From the NCBI GenBank assembly GCA_965235115.1, contig OZ249437.1:18662001-18726000 (forward strand): 64,000 nt of DNA. Reading direction: 5' to 3'. How positions within the stretch are numbered: the first letter of the stretch is position 1; the number at the start of each line of letters is the position of its first letter. This DNA is from Laetmonice hystrix. Its lineage: Eukaryota. This document shows positions 3,001 to 27,000 of the stretch, piece after piece. Position numbers: made by a program.

Positions 3001-6000
3001 AACATGACGACGAACGCTGTCAATGTAGCCAACCTGTACTCGGAGTTCGTATCGTCAGGCGTTTACTAGCACTAGCACACGTTATATATAGCTTTCATGG
3101 CATAAACCGTACATCCCACGCTCCATCAGGTAGGTATAGCTTACTCCGAAGAAAACCTTTTTTGTATCCGGTTGGAGATATAATCTCCACGTGATATGGA
3201 ATTGCATATAAAGTAGATTTGACGACTGTATTGAGCCGGAAGTCTTGGTGCCTCCGTCGTGTATTTGATATAAAGTAGATTTGACGACTGTATTGAGCCG
3301 GAAGTCCTGGTGCCTCCGTCGTGTATTTGATATAAAGTAGATTTGACGACTGTATTGAGCCGGAAGTCTTGGTGCCTCCGTCGGGTATTTGATATAAAGT
3401 AGATTTGACGACTGTATTGAGCCGGAAGTCTTGGTGCCTCCGTCGTGTATTTGATATAAAGTAGATTTGACGACTGTATTGAGCCGGAAGACTTGGTGCC
3501 TCCGTCGTGTATTTGATATAAAGTAGATTTGACGACTGTATTGAGCCGGAAGTCTTGGTGCCTCCGTCGTGTATTTGATATAAAGTAGATTTGACGACTG
3601 TATTGAGCCGGAAGTCTTGGTGCCTCCGTCGTGTATTTGATATAAAGTAGATTTGACGATTGTATTGAGCCGGAAGTCTTGGTGCCTCCGTCGTGTATTT
3701 GGCCCCCGTAATTTACCCTTCACTACTCGCGGTGATTGATGGTTGGCTGTGAACACAGTTTATAATAACATCGGGTCGTCCCTCGGTGCTGCCCCCTATC
3801 TGTGCCACGACCCCTGTACCTCGTGATGACCTTGTCCGTGAGATGTGACCTTTCTGTTAGGTCCCTCTCACAACGCGCCCCACCTTTTTGTTATCATCGA
3901 CCATTATCTGAAAAACGAAAATCACGAAAGTTACTATGGATAATCAATACGGGGAAAATAATGTCCTTTAAAGGCACCGTACTTTGTTAGAACAATCTGT
4001 CACAGTCTACATACCCTAACTGCAGGCGTACCATTACCTTATCTTAGTTTTTACCAAATTCTGTAAAAAAGAGGATGCTTTATGGAAACAGCAATACCTG
4101 TAGGCCTTACACGCTGCAGACGGTAAAAACGACTTTGGTACCAGAAATTAACTCCCTGTACGTGGTACCGAAAGTTTCCAGATTATCATAAGATTCGCTT
4201 TCAGGGGAAAACATGCTCTGTGATCAACAGTAACTTTAGAATTCCAAAAAGTCCTGGAGTATCGGGTCATAATTAGTAATATTAATGGATACAGGGAAAG
4301 TCAAGATTGGAACAATAAAAATATTATATCGGTGAACAAATTATTTTAAACAAACACTGACAGAAGCAATTCACCCCTCTTAAAAAATTACATTATGACG
4401 TATCTACATTATGACGTATCTACATTATGACGTATCTACAGCTCATTCCGACAGCATGACAGCCAGGACCAGCTCTTCTTACGAAAATTAGGTGTCAAAC
4501 ATAGTGAAGCGCTTCTGCCTTGACCTCATAAACAGGGGTTAATCAGAAGTGGGTCTCTCCTTGTCGCTTACCAAGACGATGTGCTGCATTTAACATGTAT
4601 TCTTCAATGTGCACCTTTGTTTACAGAATCAACCAAACCATATAAAAGTTATTAGGTAGGTTATAGGACTGGTTTGACAGCGCGAGATTATATCCAAGGC
4701 ACACATACATACATGTGTTGTATTTTTAATCAAACATAGGATGTGGTCATTATGACAGTGGTGCCTGGGTATATGACACCGGTTACAACATAGAGCACAC
4801 AACAAAGATATTTCGGCTATACCCGGATTCTGTTGGATCGATCTACAAAACAAGAGCAATCATTCGATGTGGACAAGGCATTGGTAGAATTAACAGGACC
4901 AGTTTGTGACACCATTTATGAAGGTCAGCTAAAGGGGCATAGCGACCTCTATATTACAAAAAGTACTATATAAAGTTGGCATGTAACGGTAAACCGACGT
5001 CACAGACGTGTGACAATTATTGTAGGTCTAAGAAAATGTCAGAAATACCTGACCTGAGAGCTGGTTCCGGTTTTAAGACCAGTAAATGCATGTGCATGGC
5101 TTCAGGTTAACGGTAGTACATGTTTACATTATAGAATTATTATACAAATGTAGGCATACTCATCTTGATCTGTCCTTTACATCATTAAACATTACTGGAA
5201 AATAAAGGGGGCCTTAGGTTATGACAGTCATGTAAAACTACAGATTGATTCCATGAACGCACCTCCGGCTCCTACTGGTATCTCACAGTTTGCACCCCGG
5301 TACCCGGTGGAGCACTGACAGGAATAACGATAGTCTCCATCCACACAGAGACCATCATTCTGACACGGACTGCTTTCACACTGGTCGGCCGTGTCCAACA
5401 GGGGCGCCTCCTTCATACCTGGAACATACACAGACAACGGTAAAACACATATTCCGGTAAAAACAAAGGTTATAGTGCTCAACATACACAAACAAAGGTA
5501 AAACACATCATATTCCGGTAAAAACAAAGGTTATAGTGCTCAACATACACAAACAAAGGTAGAACACATCCTATTCCGGTAAAAACAAAGGTTATAGTGC
5601 TCAACATACACAAACAAAGGTAAAACACATCGTATTCCGGTAAAAACAAAGGTTATAGTACTCAACATACACAAACAAAGGTAAAACACATCATATTCCG
5701 GTAAAAGCAAAGGTTATAGTGCTCAACATACACAAACAAAGGTAGAACACATCCTATTCCGGTAAAAACAAAGGTTTGTGCTCAACAAACACAAACAAAT
5801 GTTGGAGTTTTTATAACTCTTGATCATGTACCGCGATAACGTCGAAATAGATAGGCCCAAATCGAAAAGAGTGATATGTTCCACAAATAAAAATTGACCA
5901 AAAGTTTTTAAGACATATTAAATCGCTGTGTCTTACCTTTGCAGATAGCATCTCTCAAGTCATGCGCAATGTCGACCAAGGCGTCAAAGTCCTCGGCTGC

Positions 6001-24000: not shown

Positions 24001-27000
24001 GAAAACGTCATACCCTGGCAAAGTTGACCCACTAACTTTTCTTCAATTGTTGGAAGTTCCAGTGTGCTTTTTACCACATATCTGTTTATGTCGGAAGGTG
24101 GCGTCGCTATCTGATCCAACTCGTGTGTGTAGCCAACCAGCCCAATACCGATTGGATAAATATGAATCCCAGAATCCCTTGCTAGTTCCGCTTCCGGGAC
24201 GGTTCTATTGGCGTTCACATTAGATATACCATCTGTTAGGAGGACCATGAAATTTGGAACTTCTGGGCGATCTCCTTTTTCTGTCGTGAACATTTCCTTT
24301 CGCACAATCTCAATTGCTTTAGCAGTATCCGTGCCTCCATAAAGATAGGGAGTTGTTTGTATGGCAGCTAACACGTCTGCCCCGTCTGAGTAAGTGTTTA
24401 AATTAAAGTGAACCCTTTGCTTGTCGCTAAAGGACAGTACGCCCATTCGAGTCCTGTCACTTTCGACACCCAATGCCCGGGCAATGTTTTCAGTAAATCG
24501 TAACTGAGAGCCAAAATGTGGTCTCTCGACGCTGTTAGAGGAGTCAATGAGAACTACTACGTCAGCTGCACAATCTGCGGAAGAGTAAACACGTGTGAAG
24601 CAGTTAGTGGGTTCAACAACCGGAAGTGAGTGAACCGGTTTATGATTATAACATGCCACACGAATCATCTCAAAGGTCTCGCGAACGCTGGCCCCCTGTG
24701 ACGTCACAGAACAGCGTTCGTTCAGAGAACCAATGAGATGATCGCAAGCCACGGAGAAGCCATACTTTCCGTTATCTTGTCTTCACTACAACAGTCCAGT
24801 TAGTTTAAGAAATCTACTGACAGGAAATATTCGATGTTCACAAATCTACTGACAGGAAATATTCGATGGTCACAAATCAAGGTGTCTGTGTATTTGTTTG
24901 AATATCTATTGTTTCTTCTTTCGGTCTACAAACTCAAAAACAACAGATCGGTGAGTATGACTTCGTTGAAATTCTTAAACCACAGTAATTCAACATTCTT
25001 GAAATGAAAAGAAAACATTAAAATAACTTATGTCCAAAACATGACAAGCCAAACTTTCAAGCTATTCATAGTCAGGCCATTGCAAGAACGAACAAGTCGA
25101 ACAAACACCTCTGACTGCATGATGCTTTACCAAAATGAATTTATCCCTGGTTATTATTATGAATTGTTAGACCTGCAGCCTGCAGGCCCATACGTTTCTG
25201 GGTCAGCTTGTGTAGCCAAAACGTTTTGCTTTCCCCCGTAGAGACGCATGAAACCACGGTATGTATAAGATATTAAAAATATACACCAATCTATGTTCCC
25301 GAAACGGCCAGTGTCGGTTCTTGGCGGCTAACCCGCGTTTTTTTTGTATCCCTTCATTTGTTTTCGATAGTCATTTAAGTTATTATTCTTTACTACTTGT
25401 AAAACTGCCAAGACCATTTCATGCAGTTGAACGTGGAAATAGCGTGAACCTATAGAGAGAAAGGGAAACGTCAGGCACAAAGGTGGCCAATATTAGGCTA
25501 AATATATTCTAACATGATCTATGCCAAAGAAAGGTATGACTAGCCTACTAAGTAGTAACATTATAATTTCGGAGTTTTTTTTAAATAACTCGTTCTACCT
25601 GTCTGTGTTCCGTCCTCCCCGCCATTTGAGGAGGGGACGTACGATTTGGTTAATTATAATCATTCCCAATGTGATGAAGTGTGTTGAGCAGTCTGGGTAT
25701 AGAGGGGTTGTGTTCGCAGACATACACTTTCTGTATATATGCTTGAATTTAGCGTTTAATATGGAAGTGAACAGTGTATTTTGGAGCAGCCAATCATCTC
25801 ATATAAGTATAAGATAAACAGTAAAGTGAACTTGAAACAATGAGTGATTATGCGTGTTTTGTTACGCTGCTAAACGAACGTTAAAATCCAGTGTAACAGG
25901 CGTACATGCCAACGTTCCGCAATGCCTTGGATGGGACACTTACCTTGTGCATTGCCTAAGGACCAGAAATACTGGCAGTGTAATAGAAGGACTAGTCCTA
26001 GACGCCACAATGCTAACGTCTGGCCCTTCATCATGGCATACCCTGATAGCCGCATCTGGAATTCAAACAAATATATTTATTTGACAGAAAGTAAAATTGC
26101 TAACACGCACCCGTGAACGATATTACCACCGGGAACGGTAGGATCTCTTCTAATTTTGTTTAAGAATCATGAACATATTTGTGATATAAAACTATTTTAT
26201 ATCTTGCACCTCGTGTTTGTTACCTGTTACAGCCACAGGTTTTCTTGTAGGACAAAACATATCCTTTTGTGACACTCTAGTTGCTTAGCTTGCATTCAGA
26301 AATAACACCTTCGACTTTGTCCCGTAAATCAGAAGTAATGCTACCGGACTTCGCAAATTACAAACAACACCTCGGGAAAATTCACGGCAATATGAGAGGT
26401 TCAAACGGCAGCAAAAAGTTAATCAGGAGATTTTATTTAAACGTTTGCTAGTGAAACAGGTGTCAGAGTAGGCCTACATTATGCAATGGTTCGCTAATGT
26501 TCAAAAGATTCGGCCATTACTTTGTAGATCTTATTTAGATAACATCGGATCATTGAGCGGCGTACACCTCTAAGATTACACAAAGAAAGAGAAAAGCTCT
26601 TAAAGCATTGCAGGAAGGATTTCTAAATGGCTACTCTCTTTTATTTATAAAACAAATGTGGGGAGATACTCCAAGACGATCCTTCAGTTCTAACAATGGA
26701 TTTAACGTAACTCAGAACTTGTAAATTATGCCTGGGTGTCTGCCTGCTTACAGAGAGTCGGTCCTACATACCCTCACATCTCTGACCTTACCACATCTGG
26801 TACAATGTGCTGAGGATGTGAGTATACGTCTAAATGTTACCACTTCCATACAGGATCTATGCTTACATTCTTGGTGTGCAGCATGACTGGGTGCACATTT
26901 TTAATATATCATAGACTCGGTATATACATACAGATATATACTATCATTATACAGACTGATGGTCGGGCAGACAAACCTTGGCTAACTGAGAACACGAGAT

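What the first reader, a model, noticed from the sequence alone, without database searches (positions are those of the whole stretch)
5263..26034. Unusual ~2000-aa secreted protein with 9 VWA and 5 Notch-type EGF domains and no collagen helix
The architecture is SP-V-l-V-l-V-l-V-E-V-E-V-E-V-E-V-l-V-E. The N-terminal block has VWAs joined by Pro/Thr/Ser linkers; the C-terminal block alternates VWA and EGF. It matches neither vertebrate matrilin (1-2 VWA plus coiled coil) nor collagen VI (has a triple helix). Multi-VWA/EGF proteins are known components of invertebrate adhesives, mucus and shell matrix, so this may be a lineage-specific metal-dependent cross-linking matrix protein (inference).
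Basis: partly seen in the sequence, partly recalled or inferred. Interest (0 to 1): 0.65.

Follow-up and report, generated by a model that had tools for sequence, protein, structure and literature searches.

The report
Helix-less multi-VWA/EGF matrix protein gene
This is an intact gene for a large secreted matrix protein built from nine VWA and five EGF modules, and it is an ordinary member of a family already widespread in molluscs and annelids, not a one-off oddity.

Summary
On the minus strand, from the ATG at 26034 to a TGA at 5230-5228, lie 23 exons joined by 22 GT-AG introns, 2020 codons in all. No collagen helix exists anywhere in the 64 kb.

It is not unusual. 36 of 194 fetched relatives have the same build: a block of VWAs, then alternating EGF-VWA, with no collagen run. 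Two unnamed fragments, P0006 and P0199, are colinear with exons V2-E1 and V6b-E5 at 45-65% identity. The annelid protein P0005 is colinear from V5 to E5. Domain-specific quirks are shared across annelid and mollusc relatives.

Eight of 9 VWAs keep a full MIDAS metal site. The likely role is a multivalent, metal-dependent binder or cross-linker in extracellular matrix or a secreted gel; this is inferred, not shown.

Verdict: a new member of a known kind (helix-less "collagen VI-like / matrilin-like" VWA proteins). Interest is low.

The joined 23-exon product was never built or searched. All searches were exon by exon.

The parts
25944..26034 (-). Exon 1: start codon and signal peptide (30 codons plus 1 base). 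An alternative in-frame ATG lies at 26055.
   Evidence: The donor at 25944 matches 9 of 9 consensus positions and is phase 1. An 11-residue hydrophobic core scores Kyte-Doolittle 2.09, with one Lys before it. No signal-peptide predictor was on hand, so this call is inferred.
24014..24574 (-). VWA 1 (single exon, phase 1-1)
   Evidence: PF00092 E = 4.8e-40. Splice sites. MIDAS is complete. The closest relative P0006 has no counterpart of this domain.
23544..23597 (-). Linker exon l1 (54 nt)
   Evidence: One of 2 phase 1-1 open candidates in this intron, and the only one rich in Pro/Thr/Ser (0.35). It resembles, by eye only, the stretch before the first VWA of P0006. BLAST gave no hit. Weakly supported.
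22399..22965 (-). VWA 2
   Evidence: PF00092 E = 5.2e-40. 63% identical to P0006 residues 50-237. Sister to that domain in the tree (SH-aLRT 99).
22003..22065 (-). Linker exon l2 (63 nt)
   Evidence: The only phase 1-1 candidate in this intron. It aligns to the P0006 linker at residues 239-252 (57% over 14 residues, E = 0.002).
21249..21824 (-). VWA 3
   Evidence: PF00092 E = 2e-38. 56% identical to P0006 residues 261-446. SH-aLRT 99.
20764..20835 (-). Linker exon l3 (72 nt)
   Evidence: A phase 1-1 candidate with Pro/Thr/Ser fraction 0.30. A longer variant starts at 20868. The likeness to the P0006 linker is by eye only, with no significant BLAST hit.
19221..20262 (-). VWA 4 in two exons (20262-20076 and 19597-19221), split in phase 2
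   Evidence: The pieces match PF00092 profile positions 1-57 and 56-170. They abut in P0006 at residues 475-535 and 537-660, at 61% and 50% identity.
18613..18726 (-). EGF 1 (114 nt)
   Evidence: PF00008 E = 6.6e-10; hEGF PF12661 at 31.7 bits, above its cut-off. Six Cys residues.
17615..18175 (-). VWA 5, the distinctive 'V5 type': a Cys after helix 1 and no C-terminal Cys
   Evidence: PF00092 E = 9.3e-38. Cys residues at positions 1 and 41 only. The same pattern occurs in P0005, P0011, P0012 and P0196. These domains form one clade (SH-aLRT 95).
17250..17363 (-). EGF 2
   Evidence: PF00008 E = 1.4e-8.
13229..16993 (-). VWA 6 in two exons (16993-16737 and 13535-13229), with a 3201-nt intron; its MIDAS site is lost
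   Evidence: The pieces match PF00092 profile positions 1-76 and 83-173. The last Ser, the Thr and the Asp of MIDAS are all replaced. It forms a clade with P0199 and P0005 domains (SH-aLRT 99).
12861..12974 (-). EGF 3
   Evidence: PF00008 E = 2.9e-10; hEGF at 34.7 bits. 64% identical to P0199 residues 104-139.
10138..10984 (-). VWA 7 in two exons (10984-10798 and 10514-10138), split in phase 2 at the same place as VWA 4
   Evidence: The pieces match PF00092 profile positions 1-65 and 55-172. 45% and 62% identical to P0199.
9496..9609 (-). EGF 4
   Evidence: PF00008 E = 2.1e-10. 65% identical to P0199 residues 329-365.
7007..9067 (-). VWA 8 in three exons (9067-8870, 8155-7956, 7223-7007), plus the V8-V9 linker. 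Alternative phase-1 donors lie at 6968 and 6656.
   Evidence: PF00092 matches the first two pieces. The third piece has no Pfam hit. It follows in frame, and it aligns colinearly with P0199 residues 501-570, though only as the second-best match (26%). Donors.
5937..6500 (-). VWA 9
   Evidence: PF00092 E = 1.1e-39. 54% identical to P0199 residues 575-760. SH-aLRT 97.
5228..5418 (-). EGF 5, a short tail and the TGA stop at 5230-5228. A possible phase-1 donor lies at 5263.
   Evidence: PF00008 E = 8.8e-8. 60% identical to P0199 residues 762-806. P0199 also ends soon after this EGF.

Best explanation
One intact gene on the minus strand encodes a secreted protein of about 2020 residues. Its order is signal peptide, four VWA domains joined by short linkers, then EGF-VWA repeated four times, a linker, a ninth VWA and a last EGF.

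It belongs to a family found in spiralian animals (molluscs and annelids). Databases label these proteins 'collagen alpha-4(VI)-like', 'matrilin-like' or 'VWFA domain-containing'. They have neither a collagen helix nor a coiled coil.

**Likely mechanism (inferred).** Each VWA is stapled by a disulfide between its ends and offers a metal-ion (MIDAS) binding face. Eight such faces, strung on a chain stiffened by EGF spacers, would let one molecule hold several partners at once. It would then act as a metal-dependent adaptor or cross-linker in extracellular matrix or in a secreted gel such as mucus, adhesive or shell matrix.

**Shown:** the gene structure, the domains, the motifs and the relatives.

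**Inferred:** secretion, metal binding, cross-linking and the tissue.
For: - **Domains:** Pfam VWA and EGF hits.
- **Gene model:** 23 exons, 22 GT-AG introns, closed frame of 2020 codons.
- **Junctions confirmed by relatives:** consecutive exons abut within 0-3 residues in P0006 (V2, l2, V3, V4a, V4b, E1) and in P0199 (V6b to E5).
- **Metal site:** MIDAS is complete in 8 of 9 VWAs.
- **Disulfide staple:** Cys residues at both ends in 8 of 9 VWAs; V5 has an alternative pair.
- **No membrane anchor:** no 19-residue hydrophobic stretch above Kyte-Doolittle 1.7. The two highest values (1.58 and 1.68) lie inside VWA domains. The first exon has a hydrophobic core.
- **Family:** all named hits for the V2 exon above vertebrate collagen VI are molluscs, annelids or a nemertean. 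36 of 194 relatives share the build and 0 of those 36 has a Gly-X-Y run of 8 or more.
- **Orthology:** colinearity with the annelid P0005 and the domain tree.
- **Closest solved structures:** collagen VI alpha-3 (9han_C) and the mussel byssus protein PTMP1 (4cn8), which a reference title in PMC5597905 calls collagen-binding.
- **Literature:**
  - PMC5597905 (passages) counts 164 VWA proteins in a pearl oyster.
  - The same paper finds no collagen with both VWA and triple helix in three mollusc genomes, and nacre disorder after RNAi of six VWA proteins.
  - PMC11178922 (abstract and passages) reports VWA plus EGF 'matrilin-like' proteins more highly expressed in semislug foot.
Against: - No expression or protein data exist for this gene, so tissue and function are open.
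- Secretion rests on a hand reading of the first exon.
- MIDAS motifs show capacity, not use. In the annelid relative P0005 only 1 of 10 VWAs passes my crude MIDAS test, so metal binding may not be the family's conserved feature.
- Two linker exons (l1, l3) have only weak support.
- 34 of 36 relatives with this build end in a VWA, not an EGF. P0005 has a tenth VWA after the matching EGF. The 3' end could therefore be incomplete.
Confidence: 0.72

Rival explanations
1. The gene goes on beyond the window. The phase-1 donor at 5263 is used and at least one more VWA exon lies past the window's first base, as in the annelid relative.
For: - The donor at 5263 matches 7 of 9 consensus positions and has the same phase as every other EGF-exon donor.
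- P0005 continues after the matching EGF into a tenth VWA.
- 34 of 36 relatives of this build end in a VWA.
- Only a variant poly(A) signal (ATTAAA, at 4730) lies within 3 kb after the stop.
Against: - The closest relative, P0199, ends 14 residues after the last Cys of the matching EGF with no VWA start. I could not see its contig, so a true stop codon is not verified.
- No VWA or EGF signal exists in window 1-5230, either by tblastn with 49 relatives or by profile search of 249 ORF pieces.
- Such an intron would exceed 5.2 kb. The longest of the 22 introns is 3.2 kb.
Confidence: 0.17
2. It is a collagen VI-like chain whose triple-helix exons were missed or lie outside the window.
For: - Databases name many relatives 'collagen alpha-4(VI) chain-like'.
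- The best solved match is collagen VI alpha-3.
Against: - 0 Gly-X-Y runs of 5 or more in six frames of all 64 kb.
- 0 of 36 relatives with VWA plus EGF have a run of 8 or more.
- P0199 ends without a helix.
- PMC5597905 (passages) found no collagen with both VWA and triple helix in three mollusc genomes.
Confidence: 0.02
3. The protein works mainly in defence or clotting, as a soluble binder of microbes or wounds, and not as a structural cross-linker.
For: - PMC11178922 (Discussion passage) says the lectin-like and matrilin-like adhesion proteins also function in molluscan innate immunity.
- VWA domains of integrins and complement factors bind ligands through MIDAS (established knowledge).
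Against: - No lectin, C1q, pentraxin or other recognition domain is present.
- Colinear conservation from annelid to this genome fits a core matrix role better than a fast-evolving immune one. This is inference only.
Confidence: 0.08
4. It is an unexpressed or decaying copy (a pseudogene) among many paralogues.
For: - The family is large in molluscs: 164 and 162 VWA proteins in two bivalves (PMC5597905, passages).
- There is no expression evidence here.
Against: - All 23 exons are open and all 22 introns are GT-AG. The frame closes at 2020 codons.
- Motifs are kept in 8 of 9 VWAs, and all five EGFs keep six Cys in the domain with the same spacing.
Confidence: 0.03

Closest known systems
DgyrCDS3137 of the annelid Dimorphilus gyrociliatus (P0005, 1965 aa; unnamed, no known function)
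   Same: - Build VVVV-E-V-E-V-E-V-V-E-V.
- Colinear best matches for V5, E2, V7, E4, V8a, V9 and E5.
- V5-type domain followed by an EGF and a MIDAS-less V6-type domain.
- V5, V6 and V9 group with the window's domains in the tree (SH-aLRT 95, 99 and 95).
   Different: - No EGF before the V5-type domain, and one extra VWA after the last EGF.
- Only 1 of 10 VWAs passes my MIDAS test.
- Identity is only 42-45% in the best domains.
Unnamed records P0006 (702 aa) and P0199 (819 aa), both from the JGI source
   Same: - They are the closest relatives.
- P0006 is colinear with V2, l2, V3, V4 and E1 at 50-63% identity.
- P0199 is colinear with V6b to E5. Nine pieces match best at the colinear place (45-65% identity). 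V8c matches there only second-best (26%).
- Linkers of similar length lie between the VWAs.
   Different: - Both are fragments with no name, organism or function.
- P0006 goes from its signal peptide straight to the V2 equivalent, so it lacks V1.
Gastropod mucus and glue 'matrilin-like' proteins (Sm40/Sm85 of Lehmannia valentiana; VWA/EGF proteins of Arion glue and Megaustenia foot)
   Same: - Secreted proteins with VWA and EGF modules, named as such in PMC11178922 (abstract and passages). PMC4275877 (passages) lists Sm40 and Sm85 and says both hold domains that could promote protein-protein binding. PMC10225672 (passage) names EGF-like domains in them.
- The Arion vulgaris protein P0011 (VV-E-V-E-V-E-V-E-V) shares the V5-type and a MIDAS-less next domain.
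   Different: - They are much smaller. That the numbers in Sm40 and Sm85 stand for kDa is my reading of the names, and no call shows it.
- I saw no Sm40, Sm85 or Arion subfuscus glue sequences.
- The primary papers were seen only as citations (Li & Graham 2007) or are not held (PMC6124484 and PMC9682298).
- Orthology to those glue proteins is therefore untested.
Vertebrate matrilins
   Same: VWA domains with EGF domains between them. They are extracellular adaptor proteins (established knowledge).
   Different: - Matrilins have 1-2 VWAs, a run of EGFs and a C-terminal coiled coil that forms oligomers (recalled).
- Here there are 9 VWAs with single EGFs between them, and no coiled-coil family hit on the last exon and tail.
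Collagen VI alpha-3 and alpha-4 to alpha-6 chains
   Same: Long arrays of VWA domains. Collagen VI alpha-3 is the best solved match (9han_C, E = 1.5e-103 and 4.6e-90 summed over domains).
   Different: No triple helix, and EGF domains lie between the VWAs.
Mussel byssus proximal thread matrix protein 1 (PTMP1, PDB 4cn8) and pearl-oyster nacre VWA proteins
   Same: - Helix-less molluscan matrix proteins made of VWA domains.
- PTMP1 is the second-best solved match (E = 4.7e-32 and 1.8e-34).
- Nacre VWA proteins are needed for ordered nacre by RNAi (PMC5597905, passages).
   Different: - PTMP1 has two VWAs and no EGF.
- Two of the ten nacre VWA proteins carry chitin-binding domains. None is seen here.

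Membership tests
VWA domain proteins (Pfam PF00092) | Match to the VWA profile above the curated cut-off | tested here: met
   Five full single-exon matches at 130-138 bits against a cut-off of 23.8. Eight of the nine split pieces of the other four domains also score above the cut-off. Piece V8c gave no match.
VWA domain proteins (Pfam PF00092) | MIDAS metal site (Asp-x-Ser-x-Ser, Thr, Asp; motif recalled from the integrin I-domain literature) | tested here: met
   Complete in 8 of 9 domains and lost in V6. Metal binding itself was not tested.
EGF-like domains (Pfam PF00008) | Six-Cys EGF profile match above the cut-off | tested here: met
   Five exons score 32.7-41.1 bits against a cut-off of 21.5. 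All have six Cys in the domain with the same spacing; the E5 exon has a seventh in its tail.
Notch-type / calcium-binding EGF | hEGF (PF12661) or EGF_CA (PF07645) match above the cut-off | tested here: inconclusive
   hEGF is above its 29.3-bit cut-off for EGF1 (31.7) and EGF3 (34.7), and below it for EGF2, EGF4 and EGF5. EGF_CA is reported only for EGF4, at 21.1 bits against a cut-off of 27. By the recalled calcium-binding consensus, EGF2 and EGF3 fit fully and the others in part.
Matrilins | C-terminal coiled-coil oligomerisation domain | tested here: not met
   The Pfam scan of the last exon and tail (ORF 5228-5530) lists only EGF-type families and none for a coiled coil. Only 17 residues follow the last EGF Cys before the stop.
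Matrilins | One or two VWA domains flanking a run of EGF domains | tested here: not met
   Nine VWAs with single EGFs between them.
Collagen VI chains | Gly-X-Y triple-helical region | tested here: not met
   0 runs of 5 or more Gly-X-Y in six frames of the window. No PF01391 hit.
Pif/BMSP shell matrix proteins | Chitin-binding domain next to the VWA | tested here: not met
   The 20 ORFs scanned gave no chitin-binding family.
Spiralian VWA-EGF proteins with V5-type and V6-type domains (unnamed group, defined here) | A VWA with a Cys after helix 1 and no C-terminal Cys, then an EGF, then a VWA with a degenerate MIDAS | tested here: met
   Present in the window and in P0005, P0011 and P0012. P0196 has the V5-type domain but breaks off after it. 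V5-type domains form one clade (SH-aLRT 95). The window's V6 groups with P0199 and P0005 (99). The V6-type domains of P0011 and P0012 form a separate clade (97).
Spiralian VWA-EGF proteins with V5-type and V6-type domains (unnamed group, defined here) | Colinear order of domain types along the chain | tested here: met
   With P0005, seven exons (V5, E2, V7a/b, E4, V8a, V9, E5) have their best match at the colinear place. V6a, V6b, V8b, V8c and E3 do not. With P0199, nine of ten pieces do, and V8c is second-best.

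The most novel reading that the evidence does not exclude
This gene may be one member of a single orthologous group kept since before annelids and molluscs split. Each position in the chain has its own fixed character: a V5 with a moved disulfide, and a V6 that lost its metal site.

If so, it is not a lineage-specific glue or shell protein. It would be a core, still unnamed matrix protein of spiralians, a helix-less counterpart of collagen VI and matrilins. Its conserved job is unknown, and a knock-down in an annelid or mollusc model could find it.

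A smaller twist lies in the V8-V9 linker, which sits in a 39-bp in-frame minisatellite. Three of its repeated splice donors are in phase, so copy number or donor choice could tune the linker from about 20 to 137 residues.
Probability: 0.45. Interest if true: 0.4.

Novelty: new member of a known kind. Interest (0 to 1): 0.2.

Why it matters
As it stands, little. The finding adds one well-formed gene to a large family that genome annotation already labels 'collagen VI-like', 'matrilin-like' or 'VWFA domain-containing'.

Its use is as a clean, module-by-exon example of that family. Nearly every domain sits on its own phase 1-1 exon, which shows how such chains grow by exon shuffling.

It also shows that one sub-family keeps position-specific domain types between annelids and molluscs. 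If that sub-family has a conserved matrix role, it would be a candidate for the function that collagen VI and matrilins serve in vertebrates. For bio-adhesive and biomineral research it offers a defined multi-MIDAS scaffold to express and test.

Tried and rejected
- **More exons or paralogues in the window.** tblastn of 49 relatives gave 0 hits outside 5200-26100. Profile searches of 249 and 1637 ORF pieces in the flanks gave nothing below E = 0.03.
- **Collagen helix.** None was found.
- **Other genes in 26-64 kb.** Ten long ORFs gave no Pfam family above a cut-off. There were no Rfam matches and no tRNAs.
- **A near-identical protein, to name the organism.** None was found.
  - The three word-index searches were limited to proteins of 2000 residues or fewer, so the gene's own product or full-length orthologues of about 2020 residues or more could be missed.
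  - The all-against-all search has no length limit but holds one representative per 50% cluster. Its best mean identity was 38%.
- **Primary slug-glue papers.** PMC6124484 and PMC9682298 are not held. Li & Graham 2007 was seen only as a citation.
- **A paper on the evolution of alternating VWA-EGF proteins in invertebrates.** None was found by the searches.
- **Left out.**
  - The joined 23-exon product was never built, folded or searched. Split domains (V4, V6, V7, V8) were therefore analysed as pieces, and no structure was predicted.
  - The bacterial and archaeal genome collection, the phage, plasmid and E. coli collections, and the complex predictor were not used, because they do not bear on this gene.
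  - Supplements of PMC5597905 (lists and domain figures of VWA proteins) could not be seen. They may hold proteins of this build.
- **Human sequence.** The window is not taken for human; the closest hits for every exon are spiralian invertebrates.

Full report
**What is there**

The window has no N. Reading stop-to-stop frames under the standard code shows a row of open frames on the minus strand between about 26080 and 5228. Pfam calls them VWA (PF00092) or EGF (PF00008).

- Five VWAs are whole in one frame each: V1, V2, V3, V5 and V9, with E = 2e-38 to 4.8e-40.
- V4, V6 and V7 are each split into two pieces that match complementary parts of the profile. For example, the V4 pieces match positions 1-57 and 56-170.
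- V8 is in three pieces. The first two match the profile. The third (V8c) has no Pfam hit, but it follows in frame and aligns colinearly with a relative (second-best match, 26%).
- Five short frames are EGF domains with E = 2e-10 to 9e-8.

**Gene model**

A scan for splice sites and phases gives a consistent model.

- Every module boundary is phase 1.
- V4 and V7 are both split in phase 2, at the same place in the domain.
- V6 is split in phase 0.
- V8 is split in phase 1 and then phase 0.

A search of the three N-terminal introns for open phase 1-1 mini-exons found very few candidates: 2, 1 and 2. One in each intron is moderately rich in Pro/Thr/Ser (0.30-0.35). These lie at 23597-23544, 22065-22003 and 20835-20764.

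Linker l2 aligns with the linker at the same place in relative P0006 (57% over 14 residues, E = 0.002). l1 and l3 resemble the P0006 linkers only by eye.

With these three, the model has 23 exons and 22 introns, all GT-AG. No junction codon is a stop. The total is 6060 nt, or 2020 codons, closing on a TGA at 5230-5228.

Three details differ from the finding:
- The gene is on the minus strand.
The frame runs on 11 codons past it to the stop.
- The V8-V9 linker is about 20 residues with the first phase-1 donor (7007). It is 33 or 137 residues with the donors at 6968 or 6656, which sit inside a 39-bp in-frame tandem repeat. Relatives have 24-27 residues between the matching domains (my count from the sequences printed), which favours the short form.

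I did not build or search the joined product. All work was exon by exon.

**Independent support for the model**

Two unnamed protein records are the closest relatives.

- P0006 (702 aa) runs from a signal peptide through linker, VWA, linker, VWA, linker, VWA and EGF. It matches V2 (63%), l2, V3 (56%), V4a (61%), V4b (50%) and E1 (56%), in order.
- P0199 (819 aa) matches, in order:
  - V6b (54%), E3 (64%), V7a (45%) and V7b (62%);
  - E4 (65%), V8a (51%), V8b (58%) and V8c (second-best match);
  - V9 (54%) and E5 (60%).

Consecutive window exons abut within 0-3 residues in these proteins. This is what correct splice junctions predict.

**Motifs**

- **MIDAS.** The motif (Asp-x-Ser-x-Ser, Thr, Asp; recalled from the integrin I-domain literature) is complete in 8 of 9 VWAs. 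V6 has lost the last Ser, the Thr and the Asp.
- **Cysteines.** Eight VWAs have one Cys at each end. V5 instead has Cys at positions 1 and 41 and none at the end.
- **EGF exons.** EGF1 to EGF4 are 114-nt exons, and all five EGFs have six Cys in the domain with the same spacing.
- **EGF type.** hEGF (PF12661) is above its cut-off for EGF1 and EGF3 only. The calcium-binding EGF profile is below its cut-off where it is reported at all. 'Notch-type' is thus fair for some EGFs and unproven for the rest.
- **Secretion.** The first exon has a short charged start and an 11-residue hydrophobic core (Kyte-Doolittle 2.09). No other piece has a membrane-span-like stretch outside a VWA strand. Secretion is inferred, because no signal-peptide predictor was on hand.

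**No collagen helix, no more exons**

No frame of the whole window has 5 or more Gly-X-Y in a row. tblastn with 49 relatives finds nothing outside 5200-26100. Profile searches of the flanks find nothing below E = 0.03.

The remaining 38 kb shows no recognisable gene. Ten long ORFs gave no Pfam family above a cut-off. There are no Rfam matches and no tRNAs. Much of it is minisatellite.

**Is the 3' end complete?**

This is the main open point.

*For an end at 5228:*
- P0199 stops 14 residues after the last Cys of the matching EGF.
- There is no VWA signal in the 5.2 kb downstream.
- The longest intron in the gene is 3.2 kb.

*For a continuation:*
- The donor at 5263 has the family's usual phase.
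- The annelid relative P0005 has a tenth VWA after the matching EGF.
- 34 of 36 relatives of this build end in a VWA.
- Only a variant poly(A) signal, at 4730, follows the stop.

I put the continuation at about 0.17. A continuation into a collagen helix is very unlikely (0.02).

**What it belongs to**

The V2 exon finds 49 longer proteins. All named hits above the fish collagen VI alpha-2 chains are molluscs, annelids or a nemertean, mostly auto-named 'collagen alpha-4(VI) chain-like', 'matrilin-1-like' or 'VWFA domain-containing'.

A search of 1.84 billion representatives with the V5 exon gives 8648 proteins at E <= 0.001, and 453 at E <= 1e-30.

I drew architectures with profiles built from the window's own domains. 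Of the 194 proteins then in hand, 36 carry both VWA and EGF. These typically have a leading block of VWAs followed by alternating EGF-VWA, as here. None of the 36 has a Gly-X-Y run of 8 or more, while 42 of the 194 (vertebrate-type collagens) do. The build is therefore common, not unusual.

**A conserved sub-family**

P0005 of the annelid Dimorphilus gyrociliatus (1965 aa) has its best match to V5, E2, V7, E4, V8a, V9 and E5 at colinear places. V6a, V6b, V8b, V8c and E3 do not.

The odd V5 type, followed by an EGF and then a MIDAS-less VWA, recurs in three proteins: P0005, P0011 (Arion vulgaris) and P0012 (Argonauta hians). P0196 (Candidula unifasciata) has the V5 type but is cut short.

I built a quick maximum-likelihood tree with SH-aLRT support only. 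It has 51 domain rows: eight window exon pieces, each as its own row, plus domains of eight relatives. Pieces under 95-100 residues were left out.

- The window's V5 groups with P0005's (95), inside a clade with the three mollusc V5-type domains (95).
- V6b groups with P0199 and P0005 (99).
- V7b groups with P0199 (96).
- V9 groups with P0199 (97), then with two P0005 domains (95).
- V2 and V3 group with their P0006 partners (99 each).
- V4b groups with its P0006 partner (84).
- V1 is unplaced.
- The V6-type domains of P0011 and P0012 form their own clade elsewhere (97), so the V6 evidence is mixed.

The window's V5 sits with the annelid domain, not with the molluscs. The phylum of the source animal is left open (spiralian). 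It is not human.

**How it probably works**

The closest solved structures are collagen VI alpha-3 (9han_C) and the mussel byssus protein PTMP1 (4cn8).

The literature I could read:
- PMC5597905 (passages) reports 164 VWA proteins in a pearl oyster genome.
  - Ten of them are in nacre, and nacre grows disordered after RNAi of six.
  - It finds no collagen with both VWA and triple helix in three mollusc genomes.
[quoted passage not shown] - PMC4275877 (passages) lists the slug trail-mucus proteins Sm40 and Sm85.

From this and the anatomy, the best reading is a multivalent binder. Eight metal-dependent faces sit on a chain spaced by EGF modules, linking matrix or gel components. Only the capacity (the motifs) is shown. 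Metal binding, partners, tissue and oligomeric state are inferred. In P0005 only 1 of 10 VWAs passes my MIDAS test, so metal binding may not be what the family conserves.

**Comparison and verdict**

It works like a matrilin or the VWA arms of collagen VI, but it is a member of neither. The coiled coil and the triple helix were looked for and not found. It is not a Pif/BMSP protein either, as there is no chitin-binding domain.

It is a new member of a known kind. The second (a downstream collagen helix) is not met.

Interest is low, at 0.2. The one reading that would raise it is that this is a pan-spiralian orthologue with fixed domain identities and an unknown core matrix role.

**Limits**

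- Word-index searches saw only proteins of 2000 residues or fewer.
- Names for P0050-P0194 could not be fetched.
- Two slug-glue papers are not held.

Noticed in passing
window 6657-7016 (minus-strand exon V8c and the intron after it): A 39-bp tandem repeat of 9.5 copies is in frame with the V8 exon. Each copy carries the same GT donor. Three of these donors (7007, 6968, 6656) are in the right phase, so linker length could vary from about 20 to 137 residues by donor choice or copy number.
   Followed up: partly
window 24014-24574 (V1 exon) and 25944 / 23597: V1 is a phase 1-1 exon between two phase-1 sites. The closest relative P0006 goes from its signal peptide straight to the V2 equivalent. 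Skipping V1 would give exactly that form, so V1 may be a recent gain or an optional exon.
   Followed up: partly
window 5423-5799, 7388-7949, 8166-8649, 11204-12856, 15063-15303, 19615-19794: Introns of the gene are full of minisatellites with periods of 30-160 bp, up to 41 copies at 11204-12856. Many are open in several frames on both strands and can pass for coding sequence in an ORF list.
   Followed up: no
window 33514-34736 and 35380-35715: A GC-rich block (up to 58% G+C against about 44% elsewhere) holds a 35-bp repeat of 35 copies and a 40-bp repeat of 8 copies. They give long open frames of up to 439 aa that are repeat artefacts, not genes.
   Followed up: no
window 26100-64000: 38 kb upstream of the gene has no recognisable gene: 0 Pfam families above a cut-off in 10 long ORFs, 0 Rfam matches, 0 tRNAs and no VWA or EGF signal. 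Small-exon genes would have been missed.
   Followed up: partly
window 17615-18175 (V5) and 13229-16993 (V6): V5 has moved its disulfide (Cys at positions 1 and 41, none at the end) and V6 has lost MIDAS. Both quirks recur at the same chain positions in annelid, gastropod and cephalopod relatives.
   Followed up: yes
window 10798/10514 and 20076/19597: V4 and V7 are split by a phase-2 intron at the same place in the domain. Both have exons of 187 and 377 nt, which hints that one arose from the other by duplication of an exon pair.
   Followed up: no
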